The notes beneath the pieces are model-generated. The model ran no database searches. It saw only the letters and a program-made list of their open reading frames with translations, and had not been told where the DNA came from. From an uncultured bacterium (lineage in GTDB: Bacteria; Desulfobacterota; DSM-4660; Desulfatiglandales; JALVMZ01), in the NCBI GenBank assembly GCA_965613025.1, contig CBFDUE010000004.1, positions 11,411-75,410 on the forward strand: 64,000 bases of DNA. Direction: 5' to 3'. The position numbers and the translations under genes were made by a program. Below, in pieces: positions 5,682 through 59,949 of the stretch (positions are counted from its first letter, which is position 1; the number at the start of each line of letters is the position of its first letter).

Positions 5682-7001
<1,320 letters not shown>

Positions 7002-7128: not shown

Positions 7129-7872
7129 GTGTATATGAATAGAGAGGAAGGAATAATATATCCAAGAAGGGGGAAGGGTGAGCCTTGTATTGAAGGTGAT
7201 GTATTGATGGTGCTCGTATCAGGTGAGCTCAATAGATTTAAAGAGCGTTTTAATGCCTTTCCCATATACAGGTTTGATTCAGAGATCTTTCATCTCTTTA
7301 AGGTGGATAAAGGGCCCTATATGGTAGGCCCCTTTTTAGGGGCACCTCAGGCAGTACTTGGCCTTGAAAAGATGATTGCACTTGGGGCAGAAAGGATCTG
7401 GGTATATGGATTCTGTGGTTCTATCCAGGAAGATATAGAGATTGGAGATATTATAGTTCCCCAAAGCTCAATTCCAGAAGAGGGGACTTCAGAACACTAT
7501 CCGGTGGATCTGGAAACCTGTAGAACTGATATGGAGATGAACAGCAGGATCCTTGAAATCTTAGATAAAAGGGGCCTAAGGTATCATAAAGGGAATATGT
7601 GGAGCATAGATGCGCCCTATAGGGAGACGCCTTCAAAGATACGGAGATATTGTGAGATGGGTATATTGGGTGTGGATATGGAGCTCTCTGCTCTGATTAC
7701 AGTTGCAACCTTTAGATCAGTGAAGATTGCGGGGTTGCTTCTGGTCTCTGATCTGCTTTTACCTTACAGATGGAAGCCGGGGTTCAGGGATAAGGAATTT
7801 AAGAGGGTATGTGGATTGATTCCAGATATCTTTAAAGATCTCCTTTTAAGGTCATGGAGAAGAGATGGATAG
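7129..7872 (+). CDS. PNP/UDP-family nucleoside phosphorylase-like protein
   Basis: 247 aa with a family-like core (GAPQAVLGLEKMIALGAERIWVYGFCGS, GDIIVP, SIDAPYRE, GVDMELSAL). The start may be the ATG at 7135 rather than the GTG at 7129. Confidence 0.7.
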   Translation: MYMNREEGIIYPRRGKGEPCIEGDVLMVLVSGELNRFKERFNAFPIYRFDSEIFHLFKVDKGPYMVGPFLGAPQAVLGLEKMIALGAERIWVYGFCGSIQEDIEIGDIIVPQSSIPEEGTSEHYPVDLETCRTDMEMNSRILEILDKRGLRYHKGNMWSIDAPYRETPSKIRRYCEMGILGVDMELSALITVATFRSVKIAGLLLVSDLLLPYRWKPGFRDKEFKRVCGLIPDIFKDLLLRSWRRDG

Positions 7873-9001
7873 AGAAATGAGTCAAGAGATAGAAAATCTG
7901 GAAAACAGGATAATGTATCATAGGTTTAGATATCATATCCTAAAGGATCCTGAAATAAACGATGAGGACTATGATAGATTATTGAATAGACTCATTGAGC
8001 TTAAAAGTAGATACGGCCTTGAAGATGCTCCTACATATAGATGGAAGAGGGACCTTAAAAGATATGTCATAAGAGATATGGAAAGGCTTATAGAGCTTTT
8101 AAATATTCAAAGGGATAGATATGACTCATTCATTGTTGAGCCTCTTTTAAAAGGTGTAGAGGTGGATCTACTCTATAGAGAGGGAAGGCTTATATCTGCA
8201 ATATCTGAAGATGATGAGCTCTTTCTACATATGTCCACCATCCTGGATGTTCCTTTACATATTTTTCCCCTATATGATAATCTCACCATTCCTCCATGGC
8301 TTACAGTTGGTATAAAGGTATATATGGAAAGGCAGGATCTAAATACATTAAATTCAGCACTTCAAAGCAGAGGCATTAGGGGTTTTAAAGACACATTTCA
8401 TGCGACCTCACATTCATTGAAAACTGATCCAAGGATTACTGCAAGAAGACCCCTTAAGATCTTTTGCTATTGGGCAAAGGCAGATTTTGGATGCGAATTT
8501 AAAAACCAGATTGAACTTATATCCTATCTTCAGAATCTGGGTTTTAGAATAAACCGAACGATGATTAGCACCTTTTCTAACCCATATGATATTGAGGAGA
8601 TCCATAAAGAGATAAGGGATGAAACAGATGAGCTTCCATACGATGTGGAAGGCATGGTAATAAGGGAAAACAGACCCCTTAAAGAGGATGGAACAGAACT
8701 CTTTATCCGATTCCTCTGGTCTCAAGAGGAGTCATCACTGAGATTTCTCTCCCTTCCCACACCTTCAAAGAATATATTTAAAGGTAAAAAGGTGTGTCTA
8801 AGTGGTTCCCTAAATTCCCTTTCATGGAATGAGATAAGGGAATATCTGGAATCCTTAGGTGCTAAGCTGGTCCATGAGCTATCATCTGACACTGATCTTC
8901 TCATCTTAGGTGATGCTCCTGGGCTAAAGCTAAGAGAAGCAAAAGAGATGGGTATTGAGATCATAGATGAAGCCACATTCTTTAAGATATTGGAGGGATA
9001 A
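7865..9001 (+). CDS. truncated, catalytically degenerate NAD+-dependent DNA ligase (LigA) paralogue: domain Ia + NTase-like fold + BRCT
   Basis: Collinear by eye with E. coli LigA at three points. Domain Ia is RYHILKDPEINDEDYDRL. The NTase region contains DPRITARRPLKIFCY. The BRCT region is KGKKVCLSGSL...LGAKL...TDLLILGDAPGLKLREAKEMGIEIIDEA. KxDG is replaced by LLKG. The OB, Zn-finger and HhH regions are absent (378 aa versus about 670). Confidence 0.75.
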   Translation: MDREMSQEIENLENRIMYHRFRYHILKDPEINDEDYDRLLNRLIELKSRYGLEDAPTYRWKRDLKRYVIRDMERLIELLNIQRDRYDSFIVEPLLKGVEVDLLYREGRLISAISEDDELFLHMSTILDVPLHIFPLYDNLTIPPWLTVGIKVYMERQDLNTLNSALQSRGIRGFKDTFHATSHSLKTDPRITARRPLKIFCYWAKADFGCEFKNQIELISYLQNLGFRINRTMISTFSNPYDIEEIHKEIRDETDELPYDVEGMVIRENRPLKEDGTELFIRFLWSQEESSLRFLSLPTPSKNIFKGKKVCLSGSLNSLSWNEIREYLESLGAKLVHELSSDTDLLILGDAPGLKLREAKEMGIEIIDEATFFKILEG

Positions 9002-9002
9002 G

Positions 9003-9281
9003 ATGGATAATGTCAGAATGCACCTGATTATAAAAGGAAGGGTTCAGGGGGTATTTTTTAGAGATTCCACAAGACAGGTGGCAAGGAGCTTAGGAGTTAC
9101 AGGATGGGTAAAAAACAGATGGGATGGCACTGTGGAAGTCGTTGTAGAGGGTTCAGAAGATAAGGTAAGAGAGCTGATTAAATGGTGTCATAAAGGGCCT
9201 CCTGCTGCCCGTGTTGACGGAGTGGATGTTAAGGAAGAGGAGTTCTTAGGCGAATTTGATAGCTTTGATATAGTCTATTGA
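9003..9281 (+). CDS. acyP: acylphosphatase
   Basis: VRMHLIIKGRVQGVFFRDSTRQVARSLGVTGWVKNRWDGTVEVVVEG is the acylphosphatase signature. Start chosen at MDNVRMH (9003). The ORF is open from 8967. Confidence 0.85.
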   Translation: MDNVRMHLIIKGRVQGVFFRDSTRQVARSLGVTGWVKNRWDGTVEVVVEGSEDKVRELIKWCHKGPPAARVDGVDVKEEEFLGEFDSFDIVY

Positions 9282-9282
9282 G

Positions 9283-10179
9283 ATGAATAGAAGATCTTTT
9301 ATATTATGTATCTTGGTCTTTATCTGCATAATTGGGTGTAACCGGATAAGAAAGATCCCTGAACCCGTGCTCAGTCACTTTAGGGCAAAGAAGACCATCT
9401 TAAAAAAAGAGATCCTATATTTTCCCATTATAAATAGTGCAAAGCTCAGTGAAGACCTTATCCGGGAATTAGATACGCTCTTTATGGATAGGCTTTTAAA
9501 GGATAGAAGACTTATAGTTCGAAAGGAGATGCGTTATAGACCAACACTTGCAAAGACCCTTCTTCCCTACTATGGGATCAGCATAGATCAGGATCTACTA
9601 AAGAAGGGTAAGGCTCAAGGTGCACAGATAATACTTACTGCTATTATTCCCCCCTTTCAAAAGGAGATTAAAAAGAGAGGGATATGGCCTTTTAGAAAGG
9701 AAAGGCAGGAGCTAAAGATATTTATGGTCTTAAATATGATTGATGTATTTACAGGGACCTATATCGCATCCAGTGTGGAAGAGGAGACACTATATCTTGA
9801 AAATGATGAGGAATCTCAGATGGCACTCAGTGATGAAAGGATCTTAAAGACCTTTAAGAGATTAACAAAAAGGCACATCAATACCCTTCTTAAGACCCTA
9901 TCTGAGATTCCCTGGCAAGGCAGAATAATAAAGGTAGATGATGGAAACATATTCATTAATGGTGGCTCATTGGTGGGGCATAAAAGGGGGATGATATTTG
10001 AGGTATATCCCATTAGTGACTATATACTTTCCTCAGAAGGAAGGCCCATACCGGTCTTGGGAGATAAATTGGGTGAGATAGAGATAAAGGAGACAAGAAA
10101 GATAAGTTCTATCTGCATATCCCTAAATAATAAAACAAAATATAGTGTGGGTCAGATTGTCCGCCTCAAAAGAGAATAA
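9283..10179 (+). CDS. hypothetical lipoprotein
   Basis: Signal peptide with lipobox (LVFICIIGC). No recognisable catalytic motif. The start is 1 nt after the acyP stop. Confidence 0.6.
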   Translation: MNRRSFILCILVFICIIGCNRIRKIPEPVLSHFRAKKTILKKEILYFPIINSAKLSEDLIRELDTLFMDRLLKDRRLIVRKEMRYRPTLAKTLLPYYGISIDQDLLKKGKAQGAQIILTAIIPPFQKEIKKRGIWPFRKERQELKIFMVLNMIDVFTGTYIASSVEEETLYLENDEESQMALSDERILKTFKRLTKRHINTLLKTLSEIPWQGRIIKVDDGNIFINGGSLVGHKRGMIFEVYPISDYILSSEGRPIPVLGDKLGEIEIKETRKISSICISLNNKTKYSVGQIVRLKRE

Positions 10180-10193
10180 TTAAAAGTAATTTA

Positions 10194-11864
10194 TTAAAAT
10201 TTTCGTAACATCTCCCTTGCATGTTCTATAGCCTTTTTTGTTATCTTTTTACCTCCAAGCATTCTGGCTATCTCTCTTATACGCTCCTCTTTATTGAGTT
10301 TGAGGATCTGTGTCTCTGTCCTCTTACCCTTTATCCCCTTTCTTACAAGGAGATGGATATCCCCTTTACTTGCTATCTGTGGAAGGTGGGTTATACATAT
10401 CACCTGATAGGATGAAGATAGTGCTCTGAGCTTTTCACCCACAACCTCTGCAGTTGCTCCCCCGATGCCAGAGTCCACCTCATCAAATATAAGCGTCTCA
10501 CTGCTCTCCTTCTCAGATAGGATACTTCTTATAGCAAGCATAATGCGAGAGAGTTCTCCACCTGAGGCGATCTTTGAAAGGGGTTTGAGATCCTCTCCTA
10601 TGTTGGTTGAGATAAAAAATTCCACCCTATCATATCCAGAATCGGTTAATTTAGGTTCTCCTTCATTCTCGTTAAAGAAACGAACTTCAAAGCTCGTTCC
10701 CTTCATATCCAGTTGGTTCAGCTCCTTTTCAATAGCACACTTCAAAGATTCTGCCACCTTATGTCTCTTACTGGAGAGGAGGTGTGCCATATCCCATAGC
10801 CTTTCCTCCATATCTGAATATCTCTTCTTTAAATCTTCTAATCTAAGAACCTTTTCCTCAATCCCTGAAAGCCTCTCTTCAAGTCTCCTTTTGGTCTTTA
10901 GGATCTCTTCAATGGTAGATCCATATTTTCTCTTAAGTCTATTGATCACAGACCTTCTCTCCTCTAAACCCATAAGCCTTTCAGGGTCTAAGGAGAGGTT
11001 CATCTTTCTTCTTCCCACCTCCAATGCCACATCCTCTGCATTTACTTTTGCGATTTCAAGCTGATCCACCATCTCCTTAAAGACGCTATCAAACTCCTTT
11101 AAGTCTTCCATCTCACCAATAACACTATGTAACTTAGAGATAACCGAATCCTTTCCTTCATAAAGTTCCTCATAGGCATTGTTTAGAACCTCTGCAATCC
11201 TTTTGGCATTCTGAAAGATCTTAAATTCCCTCTCAAGCTCTTCATCTTCTCCTTCTTTAAGCCCGGCAGAGTCTATCTCTCTGAGTTGAAATCGGATAAG
11301 CTCTTCCATCTTTTGATCCTCTTCAAGCTCCATCTTTAATGTGTGGATCTCCTGCTCCAATCTTTTAAAATCTTCAAATACCTTTCTATATCTTTCTCTT
11401 TCTTCCAGGAGCCCTCCAAACTGATCCAGAAGTTTTAGATGGTTTTCTGCTTTCAATAGCTCCTGATGTTCATTTTGCCCGCTTACACTTATAAGCATGC
11501 GAGCGAGATTTGAAAGTATCTGAACTGTGGCAAGCATCCCGTTTATTAAGACCCTATTTTTACCACCCCTCTGAATCCTTCTTATTATAAGGAGCTCCTC
11601 CTCTACAGGATATCCCAGCTCTTTGAGATACTCTGCCACCTTAGAACTCTTGGGAATGGAAAACAGGGCCTCTACCCTCGCCTCCTGTGAACCTGAGCGT
11701 ATCATCTCTGAAGATGATCTGATTCCCCTAATCAGATTTACCGCATCTATGAGTATGGATTTACCTGCACCTGTCTGGCCGCTTATGATATTTAGACCAG
11801 GAGCGAATCTTACCTCCAGCCTGTTTATGATTGCAAGCTCAGATATGTTAAGTTGAAGAAGCAT
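10194..11864 (-). CDS. recN: DNA repair protein RecN
   Basis: 556 aa SMC-like protein with N-terminal Walker A (GQTGAGKSILIDA), long coiled coil and C-terminal signature and Walker B (ASGGELSRIMLA, LIFDEVDSGIGG). Confidence 0.9.
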   Translation of the reverse strand: MLLQLNISELAIINRLEVRFAPGLNIISGQTGAGKSILIDAVNLIRGIRSSSEMIRSGSQEARVEALFSIPKSSKVAEYLKELGYPVEEELLIIRRIQRGGKNRVLINGMLATVQILSNLARMLISVSGQNEHQELLKAENHLKLLDQFGGLLEERERYRKVFEDFKRLEQEIHTLKMELEEDQKMEELIRFQLREIDSAGLKEGEDEELEREFKIFQNAKRIAEVLNNAYEELYEGKDSVISKLHSVIGEMEDLKEFDSVFKEMVDQLEIAKVNAEDVALEVGRRKMNLSLDPERLMGLEERRSVINRLKRKYGSTIEEILKTKRRLEERLSGIEEKVLRLEDLKKRYSDMEERLWDMAHLLSSKRHKVAESLKCAIEKELNQLDMKGTSFEVRFFNENEGEPKLTDSGYDRVEFFISTNIGEDLKPLSKIASGGELSRIMLAIRSILSEKESSETLIFDEVDSGIGGATAEVVGEKLRALSSSYQVICITHLPQIASKGDIHLLVRKGIKGKRTETQILKLNKEERIREIARMLGGKKITKKAIEHAREMLRKF

Positions 11865-13693
11865 CAGCTCTCCACTTCATGAATCTCTTCCCATGTTACC
11901 CTTAACACCTCTTCGTATGTGGTGATTCCCTCAATTAGTTTTCTTACCGCATTGTCCCTCAGGGTTACCATTCCCTCCTCTATTGCCACCTTTCTTGCAG
12001 AGTCTGTATCAAATTGATCCCTTATCAGTGACCTTATCCTGTCTGTTACGGTCAGGATCTCAAATACTCCACTCCTTCCAAGATAGCCTGTTCCTCTACA
12101 TCTTATACAGCCCTTACCTCTATAAAGGGTTATCTTACCATCCCTTCTTATATCTATTCCAAGCTCCCTTAATTCCTCTGAATCCATAGTGAATCTCTCT
12201 TTACAAAATCTGCAGATCTTTCTTACCAACCGTTGAGCCACCACACCTATAAGTGTTGCCTTGATTAAGAAGGCAGGAAGACCCAGATCCAGAAGCCTTG
12301 TTATGGCAGACACCGCATCATTGGTATGCAGTGTGGAAAAGACCAGATGTCCAGTTAATGCTGCCTGAATAGCGTTTTCAGCGGTTTCCAGATCCCTCAT
12401 CTCTCCTATCATTATAATATCCGGGTCCTGCCTTAGGATATTCCTAAGTATTGAGCCGAAGGTAATTCCCACCGATGGCTGAACCCCGATCTGATTGAAA
12501 TCTTCGTGTACCATCTCAATGGGATCTTCAACAGTGACGATATTAATCTCAGGGGATGAGAGATAGGTAAGGGTGGAATACAGGGTGGTAGACTTTCCAC
12601 TTCCAGTGGGGCCACATACAAGCACTATACCGTGTCTCATGTGAATTATCTGCCTGTATCTAAGGAGATCCATATGCGTAAATCCAAGACTATCCAGATC
12701 CTGAAAAAGTATCTGAGGGTCCAATATCCTCATTACAATCTTTTCTCCAAATGCAACTGGCACAGAAGATACCCTTATCTCCACACTGTCACTGTCTCTT
12801 TGTAGCTTTATTCTACCATCCTGTGGCCTTCTCTTCTCCGTCATATCCATTCTGCTCAGATTTTTTATTCTACTTACAATGGCAGAATGTATGCTCTTTG
12901 GAAGCTCAAATACCTTGTGCAAGACCCCGTCAATACGGAATCTTACAACACTTATATCCCTTTTGGGTTCAATATGTATATCGCTTGCCCTTTGATCCAA
13001 TGCATAGGAAAACAAATGATTAACCGCATTTACAATATGGTGATCATCAGAGCTAATCTCTCCTTTGCTTAGCTGTTCCAGATTTCCAAGATCCACAGAA
13101 GGAATAGAGAATTGCTGTTCAGCCTTTAAGATGGAGCGTCTAAAACCATAGAATTCATTTATAACCTTCAATATATCCTCTTTACTGCTAAGGACCGGTC
13201 TAACCCTCTGTTGAGTGACCTTAGATATATCTTGAAGGATTTCTATATCGAGGGGATAGGGAGTTGCAACAATCAGGGTGCCGTCTTTTTCTTCAATGGG
13301 AAGGACAAGATTTTTTAATGCAAAGCCTTCTGGGATCTTTCCTGTGACAAGCTCAAGATCCAGTTTAAGTGGATCGATCTTTTTATATCCCACATTCCAG
13401 GCCTTAGAGAGTGCCTGAAGTATGGTCTCTTCATCTAAGATCTTTCCAGGTTCATCAGCCCTTTCAAGCTCCATTGCAGATATAATATCTATTATATCCA
13501 CAGGAGGGCGTATCCTCTTAGACCCTCCTGCTACATATCTTATTCGCTGATACTCCTCAAGCCGCTTCTTCAATCTATCCTTCTTTTTGAATATCTCATC
13601 CCTCTGCCTTACATCAATAAGACCTTCTTTCAATAGAATCCCACAGACCTTCTCTGCGGAAAGATAGTCCCGTTTTATCCTCTTATTATCCAT
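11864..13693 (-). CDS. PilB/GspE-family secretion ATPase (T2SSE_N-like domain + ATPase core with tetracysteine motif)
   Basis: Walker A GPTGSGKSTT, Asp/His boxes (MIGEMRDLETA, TGHLVFSTLHTND), and CRFC...CIRCRGTGYLGR. Start chosen at MDNKR (13693), where TAATG overlaps the upstream stop. The ORF is open to 13726. Its stop overlaps the recN ATG (TGATG). Confidence 0.85.
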   Translation of the reverse strand: MDNKRIKRDYLSAEKVCGILLKEGLIDVRQRDEIFKKKDRLKKRLEEYQRIRYVAGGSKRIRPPVDIIDIISAMELERADEPGKILDEETILQALSKAWNVGYKKIDPLKLDLELVTGKIPEGFALKNLVLPIEEKDGTLIVATPYPLDIEILQDISKVTQQRVRPVLSSKEDILKVINEFYGFRRSILKAEQQFSIPSVDLGNLEQLSKGEISSDDHHIVNAVNHLFSYALDQRASDIHIEPKRDISVVRFRIDGVLHKVFELPKSIHSAIVSRIKNLSRMDMTEKRRPQDGRIKLQRDSDSVEIRVSSVPVAFGEKIVMRILDPQILFQDLDSLGFTHMDLLRYRQIIHMRHGIVLVCGPTGSGKSTTLYSTLTYLSSPEINIVTVEDPIEMVHEDFNQIGVQPSVGITFGSILRNILRQDPDIIMIGEMRDLETAENAIQAALTGHLVFSTLHTNDAVSAITRLLDLGLPAFLIKATLIGVVAQRLVRKICRFCKERFTMDSEELRELGIDIRRDGKITLYRGKGCIRCRGTGYLGRSGVFEILTVTDRIRSLIRDQFDTDSARKVAIEEGMVTLRDNAVRKLIEGITTYEEVLRVTWEEIHEVES

Positions 13694-14475
13694 TAACCCT
13701 TTTTCTCCTTTAATATAAACACCCATCCATTGGTTTCATAATCAAAGATAAGAGATATGGCAGAAATTGTCAGCGTTTTTCCATTAAATACCATCTCCAT
13801 AATCTGTTCATCACCTTGGTGTGTAGTTCTATCTCTTATAAGATCCCTTAATCGATTTATATCAGATCCCTCTGATAATTCCCATATCCTGCGACCTAAA
13901 AGATCTTCAGTGCTTAGATCCAGGATATCAGTGGCCTTAATGTTACAACCTGTTATAATACCATCGCTATCCACAAATATAATACCCATTGGAAGGGAAT
14001 TTATAATGGATTTCATGTATCTTATATGATCCAGAAGCCTTGCAGTTTCCTGCCTGGGCCAGATTTTCCTTGGTTCTATTATCTTGGTCTTTCTCTGCCT
14101 TCCCCCCTGTTCCACCTCCTCTAAGACCTTTTCAATCTCTCTTTTCATATTATTTATGGGGCCTTTTATAATTAGATAATCAACCCCCATATCTTTGGCA
14201 CTTTCCATCTGCTCAAGTAAACATCCACTATATACCACAACCACTATCCCTTTTTCTTTTGCCCATCCCTTCAAAAACTCAATGATCTGCTCCCCATCTG
14301 CATAGGAGATCATATAGTCCATAAAGATAAGATCAAAGTCTTGCCTTCTAACCATCTCAAGTCCCTTTCCCGCCCTGTAAGATCTCCAGACCCTATAGCC
14401 CCTCCCCGTAAGTATCCTCTCTAAGAATTCCACAAAGAGAAAGTCATTATCAATTATGAGTGCCTTTCCTTTCAT
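13693..14475 (-). CDS. response regulator: CheY-like receiver + PAS domain
   Basis: The receiver has an intact acidic pocket and phospho-Asp (IIDND, LIFMDY, VVYSG, IIKGP). The C-terminal part is PAS-like (GIIFVDSDGIITGCN...). Start chosen at MKGKALIID (14475) after GGAGAGAGGGGG. The ORF is open to 14499. Confidence 0.8.
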   Translation of the reverse strand: MKGKALIIDNDFLFVEFLERILTGRGYRVWRSYRAGKGLEMVRRQDFDLIFMDYMISYADGEQIIEFLKGWAKEKGIVVVVYSGCLLEQMESAKDMGVDYLIIKGPINNMKREIEKVLEEVEQGGRQRKTKIIEPRKIWPRQETARLLDHIRYMKSIINSLPMGIIFVDSDGIITGCNIKATDILDLSTEDLLGRRIWELSEGSDINRLRDLIRDRTTHQGDEQIMEMVFNGKTLTISAISLIFDYETNGWVFILKEKKG

Positions 14476-14486
14476 CCCCCTCTCTC

Positions 14487-16847
14487 CTATGTTACACATA
14501 CCCTTCTTACCTCACCCATATCCGTCTCACCACTGAGCACCTTTAAGATACCATCCTGTTTTAGTGTGGTCATTCCCTCCTTAAGTGCAGCATCTCTTAT
14601 AGTCTCTGTCTCTGCCTCTTTTTTAATAAGTTTTTTGATTGTAGCGGTTCCTTCCATGAGTTCATGAATGCCCATTCTGCCTCTATACCCTGTATTCATA
14701 CACTTATCGCATCCCTTAGGCCTATAGAGCACCAGCTCTTTGGAATATGTGATACCGGTATTTTTAAAGAACTCTTTTCCATACTCCATTACTAAGGATT
14801 CAAATTCCTCTTCATCAGGATGGTATGGCTCTCTGCAGTCTTTACAAAGCCGTCGGACCAGTCTCTGTGCCAGCACCCCGAGTAATGAGTCTGCAAAATT
14901 AAGCGGATTTATTCCCATATCCAAGAGCCTTGTGATGGTCTCTGGGGCGCTGTTGGTATGCAATGTGGAAAAGACCAGATGCCCTGTTAAAGATGCCTCC
15001 ACTGCAATGGAAGCAGTCTCTTTATCCCTCATCTCACCTATCATTATAACATCAGGATCTGCCCTGAGAAACGCCCTCATAACTCTTGCAAAATCAAGTC
15101 CAATCTTTGGCTTTACCTCTACCTGCCTCATTCCCTTCTGTGTGATCTCCACAGGATCCTCAGCAGTCCATATCTTTATCTTTGGGGTATTTATATAATC
15201 TAAGCATGCATGAAGTGTGGTGGTCTTCCCTGACCCAGTTGGACCAACCACTAAGACTATTCCATAGGGTTGGGTTATCAGCCTCTTCAGAGTTGAAAGA
15301 TTTCGCTCTGTCATCCCCATATCCTCAAGCTTCATTGCCCCTGCCTTAGCCAATATCCTGAGCACCGCATCTTCATAACCTCCCACTGTAGGGATAGTGG
15401 CCAATCTGAGCTCAAAGGGTGTTATACCCTTTCTTCTGAATTTAATCTTACCATCCTGAGGAAGGCGTCTTTCTGAGATATCAAGCCCTGCCATTATCTT
15501 TAATCTGGAAAGCACAGGTCTTGCCATACTCAATGGAAGGCTGATATATTCCTGACAGACCCCATCTAACCTAAACCTTATAATAGTCCTCTTTTCCTGA
15601 GGAGAGGGTTCAATATGAATGTCTGAGGCCCCCTGTCTAAATGCACTTAACAATATATGATCCACCGCTCTTACCACCTCTCCAGATTCCTCATCCCACT
15701 CCTCCTCTATCTCTTCTTCCTCCTCCTCAACAAGGCTTATCTTAGGAAGATTTGATAGATCTTCAAAGAGCTCCCTTTCTCTTTCCTCTTCCTCTTTCCT
15801 TTCATAGATCAGCTCTATATACCTTTCAATGTCCTCCTTAAGCCCTACATAGAATTTGATCCTATCGGTCTTAAGAAGTGCCCTTATATGATCTATCTTC
15901 ATAGGATCATTGGGATTATCCACCAAGACCTCCACACCATCTTTACTCCATCTCAATGGAACCCAGTGCTCATGAAGCAGAAAGGACTTTTTTATACTTA
16001 CCACAAGCTCTGATGGGAGCAATATATTGGGTTCAAAACCTTTAAATGGGCATCTGTAATAGTGTGAAAGGGATCTGCCTATGTCTTCCTTTTTAATGTG
16101 AAAATGCTCCATAAGGACAGTATCAATACTCTTTCCGCTTCGCTTTGATATATAAAAGGCCTCTTTTAGCTGCTCAGGGCTTATGATATGGTTCTGAATC
16201 AGATAATCATAGCGTGAGCCGGATACTATGCTTATCTTCAATATCTCCATCCTTTTCTTTATATCTGGATCCTGAGGGAATTCTTTGAGCAGCTCTTCGT
16301 AAAGGTTCCTTGCCAAATCTTTACTTCCTCTGCTATCTAAGTATTCGGCAAGCACTAAGAATGCCTCCTTGTATCTGGAGCCCTTTGAATTGATATTCTT
16401 TCTGATTATATCTTTTACCTTTTCAGTTGCCTCTGAAACACTATATCTATGTATCAGGATCTGCATCAGATTGGGAATTATCCAGGATATGGAATATCCC
16501 AAAGAAAGCAACTTTTCATACTCAGAGATAGCCCTATCCAGGAGGCCAAGTTCTTTAAATGCCTCGGCACTTTCTAAGATCTCCGATGGTGTCTGACTGA
16601 GATCAAGAGCTTCATTTATCCTGCGCAGATCTTCTGGTCCAATATCCTTTACATATCTCTTTTTTCCATCTTTAATCTTCTCTTTAAGCTCATCCATCCT
16701 TTTTTGTATCTGCCTTTTCTTTGCCTCTTCAATTGAAAAGGCATCAATTATCTCCTTATAGACACTTAGGGCCTCATCCAAAAGACCCATAGACTCGTAG
16801 GTCTCAGCCTCCCTAAGCCTCTTTTCCATATCACCGCTGCTATTCAT
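14487..16847 (-). CDS. PilB/GspE-family secretion ATPase with N-terminal TPR-repeat region
   Basis: 786 aa. About 200 aa of TPR-like repeats (AETYESMGLLDEALSVYKEI, AEAFKELGLLDRAISEYEKLL, LAEYLDSRGSKDLARNLYEELL). Then a T2SSE_N-like domain, an acidic linker, Walker A GPTGSGKTTT, IMIGEMRDKETA, TGHLVFSTLHTNS and CKDC...CDKCMNTGYRGR. Confidence 0.85.
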   Translation of the reverse strand: MNSSGDMEKRLREAETYESMGLLDEALSVYKEIIDAFSIEEAKKRQIQKRMDELKEKIKDGKKRYVKDIGPEDLRRINEALDLSQTPSEILESAEAFKELGLLDRAISEYEKLLSLGYSISWIIPNLMQILIHRYSVSEATEKVKDIIRKNINSKGSRYKEAFLVLAEYLDSRGSKDLARNLYEELLKEFPQDPDIKKRMEILKISIVSGSRYDYLIQNHIISPEQLKEAFYISKRSGKSIDTVLMEHFHIKKEDIGRSLSHYYRCPFKGFEPNILLPSELVVSIKKSFLLHEHWVPLRWSKDGVEVLVDNPNDPMKIDHIRALLKTDRIKFYVGLKEDIERYIELIYERKEEEERERELFEDLSNLPKISLVEEEEEEIEEEWDEESGEVVRAVDHILLSAFRQGASDIHIEPSPQEKRTIIRFRLDGVCQEYISLPLSMARPVLSRLKIMAGLDISERRLPQDGKIKFRRKGITPFELRLATIPTVGGYEDAVLRILAKAGAMKLEDMGMTERNLSTLKRLITQPYGIVLVVGPTGSGKTTTLHACLDYINTPKIKIWTAEDPVEITQKGMRQVEVKPKIGLDFARVMRAFLRADPDVIMIGEMRDKETASIAVEASLTGHLVFSTLHTNSAPETITRLLDMGINPLNFADSLLGVLAQRLVRRLCKDCREPYHPDEEEFESLVMEYGKEFFKNTGITYSKELVLYRPKGCDKCMNTGYRGRMGIHELMEGTATIKKLIKKEAETETIRDAALKEGMTTLKQDGILKVLSGETDMGEVRRVCVT

Positions 16848-19888: not shown

Positions 19889-21628
19889 TTGAAAGTCAAG
19901 CTGGCAAGGACAGCCGGGTTCTGCATGGGGGTTAAGAGGGCAATGGACATGGTATTAAGTGAGGCCTTAAGAGGTAATGGCCCTATCTATACCTATGGCC
20001 CCCTAATCCATAACAGACAGGTCCTTCAACTCTTGGAGCAGAAGGGGATATACTTAATAGATGATGTATCAGAGTTAAAAGAGGGGGTGCTTCTTATAAG
20101 GGCTCATGGAATACCACCACAGATAAGAGAAAAGCTAAGATCCTTGCCTTTAAAGGTGATTGATGCCACCTGTCCCAGGGTTGCGAAGGTTCAGGCAATT
20201 ATTAGATATTACAGCAGAAAGGGATATAAGACCGTTATCTTTGGTGAAAGGGAACATCCAGAGGTAATAGGTCTTTTGGGGTATGCAGAAAACGGTGCCC
20301 ATGTTATAAATTCTCTTTCAGATATTATGTCTCTTCCATCAAAAGGACCATATCTTCTGGTTGCCCAGACAACACAGGAACTCGGCCTCTTTGATGAGAT
20401 AAGTAAGGCCTTTAAGGAGAGATTTCCCGACTCTCTTATTATTAACACCATATGTGATACAACAGTTGAAAGGCAGGAAGAGGTGAAGAGGATATGTTCT
20501 GAAGTAGATGCCATGGTAGTGGTTGGAGGATATCATAGCGGAAATACAAAGAGACTTGCAGAAGTTGCAAGATCCACTGGCATTCCCACATTTCATATTG
20601 AAAGGGCAGATGAACTCCCCATTGATAAGCTATCTCACATGAAGATAGTGGGCCTTACTGGAGGAGCCTCTACCCCTAACTGGATAATAAAGGAGGTGCT
20701 TCAGAGGCTGGAGCGTATATCTTCCTATAGGGAATTGGGGATATGGAAAGGGATGAAGAGGGTTATGAGCTTTTTTTCTAAGACAAATATGATGATATTT
20801 TTGGGTGCACTGTCCCTTTCCTATGCCATTAAGAGGTTCTGGAATATGCCCATAGATGGAAGGATGTGTCTTTTAGTATCTCTATATCTTTACGGATTGC
20901 ATCTGATTAATAGGTTTTTAGATAAGGGCTCAGGCACATATAATGAGCCAGATACAGCAAGATTTTATAACAGATACAGAAAGGCCTTTGTGCTGATCTC
21001 CTCACTCTGTATTCTATTTTCACTTATACTGGCCTATAATATTGAAAAGATGGCATTTTTAATATTAATCTGCCTTACAATGATTGGTCTAGCATATAGC
21101 CTCTTTATCATACCTTCCTTTCTTCCCATACTTGGAAGATACCGTAGCATAAAGGATATACCAGGTTCCAAGACGCTATCCATACCAATTGCCTGGACCA
21201 CTATGATAGGGATTCTACCTTTTTTAGAATATGGAAAGATTACCCTGTCCCCTATACTTTTGACATGTTCCATTGTATTCTCTCTGATATTTATAAGAAC
21301 CTCTCTCTTTGATATCTTCCATATACAGGGGGATCTTATCGTAGGAACAGAGACTATCCCTGTAATTATTGGAGAAAAGAATAGCCTTAAGATTATTGAA
21401 TATCTTTCAGCCCTTATGATTTTGCCACTGTTTTATGTATATATCAGCGGAGTGGTTAGATCGCCTGAAATTCTCTTTTTTATCCTATGCTTTCCATATG
21501 CTCTGCTCTTAGTAAATATATACAGAAAGGGGTGGATATATCCTGGATTGAGGCTTGAGACTATGGTAGATGGAATCCTTATTCTGCCTGGAATACTTTC
21601 AATGATCTGGAATATTCTATTAAAATAA
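19889..21628 (+). CDS. ispH: IspH (HMBPP reductase) fused to a C-terminal UbiA-like polytopic membrane domain
   Basis: Residues 1 to about 280 form a complete IspH with the three cluster cysteines (GFCMGV, DATCPRV, NTICDTT). Residues from about 290 to 579 carry about 9 predicted TM helices. UbiA-like loop motifs are LINRFLDKGSGTYNEP (after TM2) and FDIFHIQGDLIVGTETIPVIIG. TTG start 7 nt after AAGGAG. Confidence 0.8.
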   Translation: MKVKLARTAGFCMGVKRAMDMVLSEALRGNGPIYTYGPLIHNRQVLQLLEQKGIYLIDDVSELKEGVLLIRAHGIPPQIREKLRSLPLKVIDATCPRVAKVQAIIRYYSRKGYKTVIFGEREHPEVIGLLGYAENGAHVINSLSDIMSLPSKGPYLLVAQTTQELGLFDEISKAFKERFPDSLIINTICDTTVERQEEVKRICSEVDAMVVVGGYHSGNTKRLAEVARSTGIPTFHIERADELPIDKLSHMKIVGLTGGASTPNWIIKEVLQRLERISSYRELGIWKGMKRVMSFFSKTNMMIFLGALSLSYAIKRFWNMPIDGRMCLLVSLYLYGLHLINRFLDKGSGTYNEPDTARFYNRYRKAFVLISSLCILFSLILAYNIEKMAFLILICLTMIGLAYSLFIIPSFLPILGRYRSIKDIPGSKTLSIPIAWTTMIGILPFLEYGKITLSPILLTCSIVFSLIFIRTSLFDIFHIQGDLIVGTETIPVIIGEKNSLKIIEYLSALMILPLFYVYISGVVRSPEILFFILCFPYALLLVNIYRKGWIYPGLRLETMVDGILILPGILSMIWNILLK

Positions 21629-35370: not shown

Positions 35371-37020
35371 ATGAGTAAGAAAAAGGAGACCATAACCATC
35401 TCTCAAGGTAAAAAGGAGCTTTTACTTTCCATATTCTCCCTTCCTCCCTCAAGGCTCTTAAATAGGATATTGAATATGTCCGATCCTAAGAGCTTTGTAA
35501 GGAGGCTTTCTAATCAAGATTTTTTCCTTCTTATAAAGAAGATAGGAATGGATGACTGTATCCCCCTGCTTGAACTTGCAGATGTGGAAAAATGGCAGTT
35601 TGTGATGGATATGGAGGTATGGAAGAGGGATGTTCCAGATATGAATATATTACATAGATGGATATCCCTGTTTTTTAAGGCAGAGCCTGTAAGGCTTTCC
35701 AGGTTCTTACTAAGTGAAGGCGAACTCCTTGCATGCTATATGTTTTTTAAATCCTTAGATATAAAGATCATCCAGGATAAAGACGAGATATATGACATAC
35801 CAGAGGGATTCTTTACCTTAGATGGAGTATACTATTTTAGGGCTAAGGAAGGTTTTGATCATGATCTGATGGAGCGACTTTTAAGATATATGGCAGGTGA
35901 AGATCTCCTAAGATTTCAGGCATTGTTTCTTTCCATTCAGGCCATAATCCCATCTGAAATTGAAGAGGAGCTCTATAGACTTAGATGTATAAGACTTCAA
36001 GAGGTGGGGCTTCTTCCCCATCATGAGGCAATCTCCATCTACTCTCCCTTAAACCCCAATACAATAGAGATTAAAAGGATACCAGAAAAGGCTATAAGAC
36101 TGGATCGTGAACTTTCTGAACTTGTCCCTGTAATACCCCTATCTCTTATAGAATCACAGAATATGCTCTCTCTTGCAGGCTCATATATAAGGGATCCCTT
36201 TCTTTTTGATAGAATTCAGATGGAATTTGCCGGCCTCTGTAACAGAATCATCTCTGCAGATGAAATAAGAATTGAAGAGCTGGAAGATCTTAAAAAGGTA
36301 TGTCTGAAGGCAGCCTCATATCTTAACCTTTCCCTTGAAAGGCTTAGTGCTAAGGATCCTGTTAAAGCTGCCTCCATTTTGGAAAGACATCCATTGGAAG
36401 ATATCTTCAGAGTGGGATTTGGTATGACACTTAAGATCAGGTGGGAGACAGAAAAGTGGATAGCAGGGAGTTGGTTTAAGAGAATGGATCTGAGGCATGA
36501 CTTTTGGGATGAATACTGGGGACAGATGCTTGAAGGTGCACTGATGAAGCATCCCAGATTTTATGACAGAGAAAAGGGGTTTAGATACTTTATGGGAATT
36601 GAAGATCTGAAAGAGTGTCTTAAGGTATTAAGATCATTAATGGTATTGGACAGTCTCTTCGAACATATGGAAAAGAGCTGGAAGATGGAAAGAGAGTTTT
36701 TTAAACTTCAAGATGCCATATTTTATCCTCTCCTTTTCAATACCATGGCTCTAATTCTGATTAAAGACAGCCCCTCCTTTAAACCCATATCCATAGAAGA
36801 GACAAAGACCTTTTTCAGGATAATAAGGCAAGACAAGATAGATGAAAAGGATTTTATAAGAGTTCTTTTAAAAGAGTTTAAGGAAATAGATAGAGAATCC
36901 CTTTCCATATTAGAAGAGACATTGGGCTGGATCTGGAAGGACTTTATTGAAGAATACGAAGATGTATCCATAGAGGCAATGGATGCGCGATTTATTAAAC
37001 ACCTTTGGATTGAAGGATAA
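35371..37020 (+). CDS. conserved-looking hypothetical protein, 549 aa
   Basis: Long uninterrupted ORF with helical-repeat-like composition. I recognise no catalytic motif. Confidence 0.55.
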   Translation: MSKKKETITISQGKKELLLSIFSLPPSRLLNRILNMSDPKSFVRRLSNQDFFLLIKKIGMDDCIPLLELADVEKWQFVMDMEVWKRDVPDMNILHRWISLFFKAEPVRLSRFLLSEGELLACYMFFKSLDIKIIQDKDEIYDIPEGFFTLDGVYYFRAKEGFDHDLMERLLRYMAGEDLLRFQALFLSIQAIIPSEIEEELYRLRCIRLQEVGLLPHHEAISIYSPLNPNTIEIKRIPEKAIRLDRELSELVPVIPLSLIESQNMLSLAGSYIRDPFLFDRIQMEFAGLCNRIISADEIRIEELEDLKKVCLKAASYLNLSLERLSAKDPVKAASILERHPLEDIFRVGFGMTLKIRWETEKWIAGSWFKRMDLRHDFWDEYWGQMLEGALMKHPRFYDREKGFRYFMGIEDLKECLKVLRSLMVLDSLFEHMEKSWKMEREFFKLQDAIFYPLLFNTMALILIKDSPSFKPISIEETKTFFRIIRQDKIDEKDFIRVLLKEFKEIDRESLSILEETLGWIWKDFIEEYEDVSIEAMDARFIKHLWIEG

Positions 37021-59221: not shown

Positions 59222-59949
59222 AAAAGGAGCGAATTGATATCCTGTTACTTAAAAGGGGACTAACTGAGAGCAGACATAGGGCACAGGCAATTATAATGGA
59301 GGGTGTGGTTGAGGTAGATGGAAGAAGGGTGGATAAACCTGGAAGACTTATCCCAATGGATTCAGAGATTGTAATAAGAAGAGATCCCAATCCCTATGTG
59401 AGCAGGGGAGGGCTTAAGCTGGAAGCCGCTCTCCGCCATTTTAAGATAGATATAAGAGATAGAATAATGTTGGATATAGGCGCATCAACAGGTGGATTCA
59501 CAGACTGTCTGATAAGACATGGAGCTTCTAAGGTAATGGCAGTGGATGTGGGTAAGGGATTGATACACTGGAGACTCAGAAATGACCCAAAGGTAATACT
59601 CTTTGAAGGTAAGAATGCAAGGTCCTTAAGAAAAGAGGATCTTCCATATGCGCCAGATGGTGTAGTAATTGATGTATCCTTTATATCTTTAAAATTGATT
59701 ATCCCTGCCCTATATCCCATAGTGAAAGATTCTGGTTTTCTGCTTCCCCTTGTAAAACCCCAGTTTGAGGTAGGGAAAAAGGGACTTTTAAAGGGGGGAG
59801 TGGTGAAAGATCCAAAGGTCCATAGAGAGATATTAGCGGATATTATTGATTTTTGTAAGGAGGAGGGATGGAATTTTATAGACTCTATGGAATCACCACT
59901 CCTCGGTCCAAAAGGAAACAGGGAATTCTTTATCTATCTTATTAAATGA
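59218..59949 (+). CDS. tlyA: TlyA-family rRNA 2'-O-methyltransferase (S4 + FtsJ domains)
   Basis: [31 protein letters not shown] and [11 protein letters not shown]. Confidence 0.88.

What the first reader, a model, noticed from the sequence alone, without database searches (positions are those of the whole stretch)
7865..9001. LigA paralogue that keeps NAD+ (NMN) recognition and BRCT but has lost every ligase catalytic residue and the DNA-clamping domains
Homology to NAD+-dependent ligase is clear by eye. DPRITARRPLKIFCY matches DPRITAKRPLTFFCY in E. coli LigA, and the BRCT matches almost motif for motif. The domain Ia residues I recall as essential for reacting with NAD+ (Y22, H23, D32, Y35, D36 in E. 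coli) all appear to be present (RYH...NDEDYD). The NTase residues are substituted. The adenylylated Lys of KxDG is Leu (EPLLKG, codon 8144-8146) and the Asp is Lys. RGDG becomes SEDD. EVRGEV becomes TVGIKV. DGVVIK becomes EGMVIR. AFKF becomes IRFL. The protein then runs straight into BRCT, lacking the OB fold, Zn finger and HhH (378 versus about 670 aa). The ORF is intact and translationally coupled to its neighbours. That argues for a repurposed pseudo-enzyme, for example an NAD+/NMN sensor or a nick/phospho-binding adaptor, rather than a decaying gene. I do not know of a described family with this architecture.
Basis: partly seen in the sequence, partly recalled or inferred. Interest (0 to 1): 0.75.

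Follow-up and report, generated by a model that had tools for sequence, protein, structure and literature searches.

The report
Dead, shortened remnant of resident ligA
This gene is the bacterium's original DNA ligase gene (ligA), still in its ancestral position, which has lost its catalytic residues and DNA-clamping domains yet is still kept by selection as a non-enzymatic protein, so the ligase that actually seals DNA must be encoded elsewhere.

Summary
ORF 7865-9001 (378 aa) is LigA-derived: domain Ia, nucleotidyltransferase (NTase) domain and BRCT. It has no OB fold, Zn finger or HhH, and every catalytic residue checked is replaced (K115->L, D117->K, RGDG->SEDD, E173->T, K290->R, K314->R).

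It is not a paralogue. In eight other Desulfobacterota MAGs/contigs a full-length canonical ligA sits between the same PNP_UDP_1 and acylphosphatase genes (a ninth contig is cut before PNP), so this is the resident ligA, reduced in place.

It is not a neutral pseudogene. Five haplotypes from different samples show 22 synonymous and 12 nonsynonymous polymorphisms (pN/pS 0.15, like the neighbouring genes), and all seven known protein variants are 378 aa.

The architecture is confined to this lineage. The 94%-identical sister lineage has deleted Ia, motif I and BRCT. Many more distant relatives carry 240-365 aa, mostly NTase-only, remnants at the same locus, with graded loss of catalytic motifs.

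Best reading: an exapted, catalytically dead LigA derivative, one of a so far unnamed series. Its function is unknown, and an NAD+/NMN-sensor role is not supported. I could not find the genome's working ligase; that is the main open point.

The parts
7865..9001 (+). 378-aa LigA-derived ORF (Ia + degenerate NTase + BRCT). It is the positional orthologue of ligA.
   Evidence: synteny
7865..8017 (+). Domain Ia remnant (res 1-51). Y23, H24, D33, Y36 and D37 are retained.
   Evidence: alignment; Pfam Nlig-Ia E=0.0047. Polymorphism 7 synonymous: 3 nonsynonymous. Deleted in the sister lineage.
8018..8125 (+). Linker between Ia and NTase (res 52-87). It is shortened and strongly diverged (22% identity against 50% among canonical LigAs).
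8126..8674 (+). NTase (adenylation) domain, res 88-270. The fold is kept and the catalytic motifs are lost.
   Evidence: PF01653 E=1e-20. pLDDT >90 and Foldseek hits to LigA NTase. Polymorphism 10 synonymous: 3 nonsynonymous.
8138..8155 (+). Motif I remnant EPLLKG (canonical EPKxDG). The adenylylated Lys is Leu (codon 8144-8146) and the Asp is Lys.
8675..8773 (+). Junction (res 271-303), holding the motif V remnant (SLRFL, K314->R293). This is the scar of the in-frame loss of OB, Zn finger and HhH (about 270-290 aa).
   Evidence: alignment; low pLDDT
8774..8992 (+). BRCT domain (res 304-376).
   Evidence: PF00533 E=1e-13. 48 bits to the E. coli LigA BRCT. Absent in the sister lineage and in the other truncated relatives examined or listed.
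7129..7872 (+). Upstream PNP_UDP_1-family phosphorylase, the conserved 5' neighbour of ligA in this group. Its stop overlaps the start of the ORF.
9003..9281 (+). Downstream acylphosphatase, the conserved 3' neighbour of ligA. Its ATG lies 1 nt after the ORF's TAA.
9283..10179 (+). 298-aa protein with no family match. It is part of the conserved block AcyP - this gene - RecN(-) - MshE(-), which defines the group that includes the truncated LigA forms.
10194..13726 (-). RecN (10194-11864) and MshE/T2SSE ATPase (11864-13726). These are synteny markers shared with loci L027, L028, L030 and L031.

Best explanation
The ORF is the lineage's own ancestral ligA, still in its original place between a PNP_UDP_1 phosphorylase gene and an acylphosphatase gene. 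It lost the OB, Zn-finger and HhH domains in frame, and every residue needed for adenylylation and nick sealing has been replaced. It therefore cannot be a ligase (inferred from the residues and the missing domains).

It is nevertheless maintained by purifying selection as a folded, translated protein (shown by polymorphism data). It is the most elaborate member of an unnamed series of truncated LigA derivatives that Desulfobacterota carry at this locus. The shared element of that series is the NTase fold, not the active site.

The most likely mode of action is non-enzymatic (inferred, not shown). The NTase fold would act as a binding or scaffold module, and in this lineage Ia and BRCT would add contacts to DNA nicks or to LigA partner proteins. 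The essential ligation is done by another ligase encoded outside the window (inferred; not found).
For: Catalytic death and missing domains.

Positional orthology:
- The order PNP_UDP_1 - full-length ligA (with acylphosphatase downstream wherever the contig extends that far) is seen in L006, L009, L010, L011, L014, L019, L020 and L029.
- In L030 and L031 the full-length ligA is followed by the wider AcyP - lipo - RecN (- MshE) block. PNP is visible upstream in L031, while L030's contig ends just upstream of ligA.

Selection:
- Five haplotypes show 22 synonymous and 12 nonsynonymous polymorphisms, pN/pS 0.15. The neighbours give PNP 0.15, RecN 0.12, AcyP 0.27 and the 298-aa gene 0.32. The excess of synonymous changes has p=5e-8 overall, 0.001 for Ia alone and 2.5e-5 for NTase.
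- All 7 protein variants are 378 aa.
- 4.9% of point mutations in the ORF would create a stop. Even 0.2 extra neutral substitutions per site would leave it open with P about 1e-5.

Family:
- P0005 (364 aa, Ia+NTase), P0155 (273 aa) and P0189 (239 aa) lie in the same synteny.
- There are dozens of 90%-identity clusters of 240-285 aa proteins with only PF01653, on contigs up to 335 kb.
- P0001 groups with them at 86% bootstrap.
- Erosion of motifs I, III and IV is graded across the series.

Fold: retained.
Against: - The sister lineage (about 94% nucleotide identity) has deleted Ia, the motif I strand and BRCT, and reads through into acyP. The protein, or at least those parts, is therefore dispensable there.
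- All three domains have diverged faster than in canonical LigAs, as expected for relaxed constraint.
- Between-lineage dN/dS on the shared part is 0.38, higher than in the neighbours. Polarisation places most of these changes on the sister branch.
- No function, partner or ligand is shown.
- Purifying selection on an expressed but useless protein, to avoid misfolding or polar effects on acyP, cannot be excluded.
- The second ligase was not found.
Confidence: 0.6

Rival explanations
1. Relic in slow decay. After another ligase took over, the resident ligA became useless and is being whittled away. The open frame persists only because of its short age, operon or translational-coupling constraints on acyP, or selection against misfolded product.
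For: - The sister orthologue has three large deletions, one of them changing frame.
- Truncation and motif erosion are graded across relatives.
- All domains are accelerated to a similar degree.
- The ORF is tightly coupled to its neighbours.
- dN/dS is 0.38 against the sister.
Against: - pN/pS is 0.15, equal to housekeeping neighbours, and includes domain Ia. Coupling constraints alone would not suppress missense changes.
- Seven intact 378-aa variants are known.
- P(no stop) is about 1e-5 or less under neutral divergence.
- NTase-only forms persist as intact ORFs across lineages only 50-60% identical to each other. The gaps to their neighbours are 16-215 nt, so coupling is not general.
Confidence: 0.25
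2. NAD+/NMN sensor or nick/phosphate-binding adaptor that depends on the retained Ia and BRCT domains.
For: - The five Ia residues needed for the reaction with NAD+ are kept.
- Ia shows 7 synonymous: 3 nonsynonymous polymorphisms (p=0.001).
- BRCT is recognisable.
- An engineered sensor built on a bacterial DNA ligase is in the PDB (8jyd, 'A genetically encoded sensor based on a bacterial DNA ligase'). From my own knowledge, unchecked here, ligase-based NAD+ sensors use Ia plus an inactivated NTase.
Against: - The NTase residues that hold the AMP moiety (K115, R136, E173, K290, K314) are all replaced.
- BRCT has lost 16 of 29 invariant positions, including the Lys of the SVSKKTD motif.
- The sister lineage deleted exactly Ia and BRCT.
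- None of the remnants examined or listed at this locus has BRCT, and most lack Ia.
Confidence: 0.1
3. It is still a working ligase, either alone with non-canonical chemistry (for example K96 as nucleophile) or as one half of a split enzyme with partners encoded elsewhere.
For: - A Lys lies two positions after the canonical one (EPLLKG).
- Heterodimeric phage ligases exist in the PDB (9i5i, 9hu3).
- No other ligA is present in the 64-kb window.
Against: - All of motifs I, III, IV and V are altered, along with R136, R200, R277 and D285.
- There is no OB or HhH domain. [quoted passage not shown]
- The sister lineage lacks motif I altogether.
Confidence: 0.03

Closest known systems
Bacterial NAD+-dependent DNA ligase LigA (TIGR00575 / NF005932; structures 2owo, 5tt5)
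   Same: Clear homology of Ia, NTase and BRCT. Same chromosomal position as ligA in related Desulfobacterota. The five Ia residues are kept.
   Different: No OB, Zn finger or HhH. The motif I Lys and all other catalytic residues checked are replaced. It scores 162 bits against the cut-off of 369. Evolution is accelerated in every domain.
Unnamed truncated LigA derivatives of Desulfobacterota at the PNP-acylphosphatase locus (e.g. P0155, P0229 'hypothetical protein B1H12_04360', P0160 'MUO52_13640', P0189, P0005)
   Same: The four whose loci I examined (P0005, P0155, P0189 and the window) share the locus and synteny. The same NTase fold is retained without OB/Zn/HhH, and catalytic motifs are progressively lost. 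P0001 clusters with them at 86% bootstrap.
   Different: They are 240-365 aa and lack BRCT, and most lack Ia. The window protein alone keeps Ia and BRCT, and it is the most eroded at the active site.
[quoted passage not shown]
   Same: A LigA-derived protein with a disrupted catalytic site, exapted for a non-enzymatic role.
   Different: It is viral and has diverged beyond sequence recognition, and its role in the replisome is known. Here the protein is cellular, still recognisable by sequence, lies at the original locus, and its role is unknown. This is an analogy, not membership.
E. coli-type LigB (NF005987)
   Same: An NAD+-ligase relative with reduced domain content.
   Different: By my recollection, LigB is a true paralogue that keeps its catalytic residues and the OB/HhH domains and lacks BRCT. 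The match here is only 28.9 bits against a cut-off of 498.

Membership tests
Functional NAD+-dependent DNA ligase LigA | Motif I KxDG with the adenylylated lysine | tested here: not met
   EPLLKG aligns with E(L/P)KxDG: K->L and D->K
Functional NAD+-dependent DNA ligase LigA | Other NTase catalytic residues (R136, E173, K290, K314 and the DNA/phosphate contacts R200, R277, D285) | tested here: not met
   The replacements are E, T, R, R, K, T and E respectively
Functional NAD+-dependent DNA ligase LigA | OB fold, Zn finger and HhH domains | tested here: not met
   No Pfam hit. The alignment shows a single gap of about 290 columns.
Functional NAD+-dependent DNA ligase LigA | Domain Ia with the NMN-contacting residues | tested here: met
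   Y23, H24, D33, Y36 and D37 are present; Nlig-Ia E=0.0047
Functional NAD+-dependent DNA ligase LigA | C-terminal BRCT | tested here: met
   PF00533 E=1.1e-13, but only 13 of 29 invariant positions are kept
Functional NAD+-dependent DNA ligase LigA | Score above the curated equivalog cut-off | tested here: not met
   NF005932 162.4 against 369; TIGR00575 146.1 against 444
Orthologue (by position) of ligA | Same flanking genes as full-length ligA in relatives | tested here: met
   PNP_UDP_1 - ligA - AcyP in L006, L009, L010, L014 and L020. In L011, L019 and L029 the contig ends before AcyP. L030 and L031 show ligA - AcyP - lipo - RecN, with PNP seen upstream in L031 only.
Truncated LigA derivatives at the PNP-AcyP locus (unnamed) | Same locus; NTase fold kept; OB/Zn/HhH absent | tested here: met
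Truncated LigA derivatives at the PNP-AcyP locus (unnamed) | Phylogenetic grouping of the NTase domain | tested here: met
   86% NJ bootstrap for the clade including P0001. This is a distance method only, and long-branch effects are possible.
Truncated LigA derivatives at the PNP-AcyP locus (unnamed) | Stand-alone NTase (no Ia, no BRCT) | tested here: not met
   The window protein keeps both
Pseudogene | Frameshifts or stops; dN/dS near 1 | tested here: not met
   The ORF is intact in 7 variants and pN/pS is 0.15. The sister orthologue does carry large deletions.
E. coli-type LigB | Curated model match and intact catalytic core | tested here: not met
   28.9 bits against 498
Anti-phage defence proteins with BRCT (PADLOC) | Full-length match to a system component in a defence context | tested here: not met
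   Only the BRCT matches PDC-S48 (E=1.5e-6). The context is housekeeping.
Poxvirus A20-like exapted ligase | Role as a replisome processivity subunit | not testable with these tools
   Analogy from bioRxiv 10.1101/2022.11.22.517515

The most novel reading that the evidence does not exclude
The lineages whose resident ligA has been reduced to a dead remnant have no functional NAD+-dependent ligase at all and replicate with a different (ATP-dependent) ligase. This would be an exception to the rule that all bacteria studied use NAD+-dependent ligases for replication (PMC7470946). The retained NTase-fold remnant would then be an exapted accessory of that new arrangement.
Probability: 0.08. Interest if true: 0.9.

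Novelty: new variant of a known kind. Interest (0 to 1): 0.58.

Why it matters
LigA is regarded as universal, essential and highly uniform in bacteria. [quoted passage not shown]

Here the gene at the conserved ligA position is catalytically dead yet still under purifying selection. At least three more distant lineages carry truncated derivatives at the same locus, and dozens of similar truncated forms exist in Desulfobacterota. This has two consequences:

1. The essential ligase of these organisms has been displaced to another gene, of unknown kind. That can be tested directly in their genomes.
2. The LigA NTase fold appears to have a selectable non-catalytic use in cells. The only precedent I found is the poxvirus A20 processivity factor.

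There is also a practical point for annotation. Sources label such proteins 'DNA ligase (NAD+)' (JGI) or 'hypothetical protein' (NCBI). The first label is wrong for function, so metabolic or essential-gene inference from MAGs would be misled.

Tried and rejected
1. A second ligA or any other ligase in the window. tblastn with canonical LigAs found only this ORF; a weak hit at 59428-59790 is the FtsJ/TlyA methyltransferase. Pfam on about 45 ORFs of the window found no ligase.

2. The genome's working ligase.
- A metagenome scan with a clade LigA (P0302) gave 80 LigA loci. None has the window's tetranucleotide signature: the highest r is 0.79, against 0.95-0.99 for window chunks and 0.96-0.99 for known window-type and sister contigs.
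- L034 comes from a sample whose identifier is adjacent to that of a window-type sample, but its GC is 34%, against 41% for the window, and r is 0.74. I rejected it.

3. An exact look-up of P0001 to learn the assembly found no record.

4. 'Intermediate' forms of 330-510 aa. The four I read (P0241, P0267, P0317, P0278) are not reliable biological truncations. Three end in out-of-frame tails, consistent with frameshifts in otherwise full-length genes, possibly assembly errors. P0278 is cut at both ends, and I did not check its tail or contig. L006 ligA is likewise split at a G-run.

5. Single or multiple origin of the NTase-only forms is unresolved. Identities favour at least two origins: the P0155 group is 68-73% identical to full-length LigAs but 56-61% to the P0157 group. 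However, the two groups share a derived AAAGS->AAADS change.

6. Defence-system membership was rejected.

7. The MK-type contrast (fixed against polymorphic changes) on the shared region is only suggestive (Fisher p=0.09).

8. Literature searches for a described bacterial dead-LigA family found none. One search failed because a term was too short.
Full report
WHAT IS THERE

ORF 7865..9001 (+) encodes 378 aa. Pfam finds the NAD-ligase adenylation domain (E=1.1e-20, res 87-267), a BRCT (E=1.1e-13, res 302-372) and a weak Nlig-Ia match (res 7-51). It finds no OB, Zn-finger or HhH domain. The curated LigA equivalogs match far below their cut-offs (162 bits against 369).

phmmer against solved LigA structures puts VEPLLKGVEV in register with E. 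coli CELKLDGLAV. The adenylylated K115 is therefore Leu (codon 8144-8146) and D117 is Lys. RGDG is SEDD, LEVRGEV is LTVGIKV, and DGVVIK is EGMVIR.

A MAFFT alignment with six canonical LigAs agrees and adds R200->K, R277->T, D285->E and K314->R293. That these positions are essential is established knowledge of LigA mutational studies, recalled rather than tested here.

One gap of about 290 alignment columns removes OB, Zn finger and HhH.

An AlphaFold2 model has pLDDT above 90 across the NTase domain. The BRCT is modelled poorly because few BRCT-bearing rows were in the alignment. Foldseek returns only LigA adenylation domains at the top (3bac: rmsd 2.0 A over 213 columns).

The start codon overlaps the stop of the upstream gene, and the downstream ATG follows the stop by one base.

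IT IS THE RESIDENT ligA, NOT A PARALOGUE

The flanking genes are a PNP_UDP_1-family phosphorylase (7129-7872) and an acylphosphatase (9003-9281).

In related Desulfobacterota MAGs and contigs, a full-length canonical ligA of about 670 aa lies directly after the same PNP gene:
- with the acylphosphatase directly after it in L006, L009, L010, L014 and L020;
- with the contig ending before that point in L011, L019 and L029.

L030 and L031 carry a full-length ligA followed by the wider block that the window has (acylphosphatase, a lineage-specific protein of about 300 aa, RecN on the minus strand, plus MshE in L030). PNP is visible upstream in L031, but L030's contig ends 48 nt before its ligA.

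The ORF is thus the positional orthologue of ligA, reduced in place. The window (41% GC, ordinary housekeeping genes) holds no other ligase.

IT IS UNDER PURIFYING SELECTION IN THIS LINEAGE

The 90%-identity cluster of the protein has seven variants from NCBI, ENA, JGI and Logan assemblies, all exactly 378 aa. DNA for five haplotypes (the window and L022-L025) shows 22 synonymous and 12 nonsynonymous polymorphisms, giving pN/pS 0.15. On the same contigs:

| Gene | pN/pS |
|---|---|
| this ORF | 0.15 |
| PNP | 0.15 |
| RecN | 0.12 |
| AcyP | 0.27 |
| 298-aa gene | 0.32 |

Under neutrality about 79% of changes should be nonsynonymous. The excess of synonymous changes has:
- p=5e-8 for the whole gene;
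- p=0.001 for Ia alone;
- p=2.5e-5 for NTase;
- p=0.04 for BRCT.

The haplotypes were picked because their proteins differ, which biases against this result. In addition, 4.9% of point mutations in the ORF create stops. The long extra branch of this protein could therefore not have accumulated neutrally without closing the frame.

BUT THE ARCHITECTURE IS NOT CONSERVED

An exhaustive HMMER scan of 1.84 billion representatives finds nothing between the query's own cluster (849 bits) and P0005 (152 bits, 42% identity).

The only close relative is the syntenic gene of a sister lineage (GCA_964440775.1, 'uncultured Desulfobacteraceae bacterium'; about 94% nucleotide identity in the flanks). There:
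- codons 17-50 (the Ia helices) are deleted;
- codons 65-112 (linker and motif I strand) are deleted;
- codons 267 to the end (BRCT) are deleted;
- the last deletion shifts the frame so that the 287-aa product runs into the acylphosphatase.

dN/dS between the two lineages over the shared 153 codons is 0.38, against 0.08-0.27 for the neighbours. Of the 18 amino-acid differences, the window state matches the wider family at 12 and the sister state at 3. The sister has lost three strongly conserved residues (V129, P143, R231). The relaxation is therefore mainly on the sister branch: in that lineage the remnant looks to be in decay.

All three domains of the window protein are also accelerated to a similar degree. 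Identities to canonical LigAs are 37% (Ia), 31% (NTase) and 34% (BRCT), against 53%, 50% and 52% among canonical LigAs.

A WIDER SERIES OF TRUNCATED LigA DERIVATIVES

P0005 (364 aa, Ia+NTase; KxDG kept, K290R, K314R), P0155 (273 aa, NTase only, all motifs intact) and P0189 (239 aa, NTase only, motifs lost) all lie between PNP and AcyP. For P0155 and P0189 (L027, L028) the same 300-aa gene, RecN and MshE follow (RecN 47-51% and MshE 64-65% identical to the window's; GC 46-59%). The P0005 contig (L026) ends inside AcyP.

A profile of these proteins retrieves dozens of further 90%-identity clusters of 240-285 aa proteins with only PF01653, on contigs up to 335 kb. They come from MAGs labelled Desulfobacteraceae, Desulfatiglandaceae, Thermodesulfobacteriota or Deltaproteobacteria, and are named 'hypothetical protein' or 'DNA ligase (NAD+)'. 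They are interleaved with full-length LigAs 60-73% identical to them.

Across the series the catalytic motifs erode stepwise:
- intact in P0155 and P0156;
- K->E in P0157-P0159;
- R->W in motif III in P0160-P0162;
- multiple losses in P0163 and P0167;
- complete loss in P0175, P0189, P0108 and the window protein.

In an NJ tree of the NTase domain, the window protein falls inside this clade (86% bootstrap) and not with the other Desulfobacterales LigAs. This is a distance method with long branches, so the placement is provisional. Whether the NTase-only state arose once or several times is unresolved. No NCBIfam model covers these forms above its cut-off, they match no defence system, and I found no paper describing them.

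HOW IT MOST LIKELY WORKS

Shown:
- the protein cannot carry out LigA chemistry, as judged from residues and domains;
- it is the resident ligA;
- it is kept by purifying selection in the window lineage;
- what relatives share is the NTase fold, not the nucleotide pocket, Ia or BRCT.

Inferred:
- a different ligase, encoded elsewhere, does the essential sealing;
- the remnant has a non-catalytic role as a binding or scaffold module;
- in this lineage, Ia and BRCT may add contacts to nicked DNA or to LigA's partners. The LigA BRCT is reported to contribute to DNA binding (PMC10504179), and M. tuberculosis LigA to engage XthA (PMC7530888; abstract only).

I put this at 0.6. The main rival (0.25) is a slowly decaying relic whose frame and sequence are held by operon or folding constraints. 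The sister lineage's deletions and the graded erosion favour it. The low pN/pS and the deep persistence of intact NTase-only ORFs speak against it. The NAD+/NMN-sensor idea (0.1) is weakened by the loss of all residues that hold the AMP moiety and by the loss of Ia in relatives. A still-active or split ligase is very unlikely (0.03).

COMPARISON WITH THE KNOWN, AND NOVELTY

The protein is a homologue and positional orthologue of LigA but fails the defining catalytic and domain features, so it should not be filed as a LigA enzyme or as LigB.

I rate it a new variant of a known kind: a bacterial, in-place, catalytically dead LigA derivative belonging to an undescribed series.

The open point with the largest consequence is which enzyme replaced LigA. 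The review PMC7470946 states that all bacteria studied use NAD+-dependent ligases for replication. I could not locate a second ligase for this genome.

Noticed in passing
L027 6001-6822, L028 6001-6720, L026 4647-5741, and many proteins: A widespread, unnamed set of stand-alone LigA NTase-domain proteins (240-285 aa) and Ia+NTase proteins (about 320-365 aa) in Desulfobacterota. The three whose loci I examined lie at the PNP-acylphosphatase locus. Loss of catalytic motifs is graded across the set. Sources annotate them as 'hypothetical protein' or 'DNA ligase (NAD+)'.
   Followed up: partly
Alignment, P0155 position 160 (window residue H183): The invariant Gly of the LigA loop NPRNAAAGSLRQ is Asp (AAADS) in most truncated forms of both main groups. 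This is either a shared derived state or a convergent change. Its meaning is unknown.
   Followed up: no
L001 7474-8337 (sister lineage, GCA_964440775.1): The sister orthologue is called as a 287-aa fusion of a partial NTase domain with the acylphosphatase, because the BRCT deletion shifts the frame past the old stop. Seven protein variants of this form exist (six of 287 aa, one called at 283 aa from an internal start). The acylphosphatase keeps its own ATG.
   Followed up: partly
L001 after about 9240, compared with window 10187 onward: Synteny between the window and its sister lineage breaks directly after the 298-aa gene. The sister has an oligopeptide ABC-transporter cluster where the window has RecN and MshE.
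   Followed up: no
L022 (ena:ERZ27227314:k141_316960), whole contig: The contig is an inverted duplication of the same PNP - lig - AcyP - RecN region (genes mirrored around about 5200). This is probably an assembly artefact.
   Followed up: no
L006 about 5975-6005: The canonical ligA of this relative is split into two called genes (101 and 554 aa) by a one-base frameshift near a GGGG run just before motif I. This is probably an assembly error. Three of the four 330-510 aa 'LigA' calls that I read (P0241, P0267, P0317) end in similar out-of-frame tails.
   Followed up: partly
window 19889-21628 (+): A 579-aa ORF combines a complete LytB/IspH domain (res 3-275) with a C-terminal UbiA-like prenyltransferase region (res 332-542). 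The UbiA match is below Pfam's cut-off. This may be an unusual fusion.
   Followed up: no
window 11864-16847 (-): Two MshEN+T2SSE secretion/pilus ATPases (620 and 786 aa; the second also has a TPR) flank a response-regulator/PAS protein (13693-14499).
   Followed up: no
window 35371-37020 (+) and 9283-10179 (+): A DUF6178 protein (549 aa), and a 298-aa protein with no match in Pfam, NCBIfam or PADLOC. The 298-aa protein is conserved (28-29% identity) next to the acylphosphatase in the relatives checked (L027, L028, L031).
   Followed up: partly
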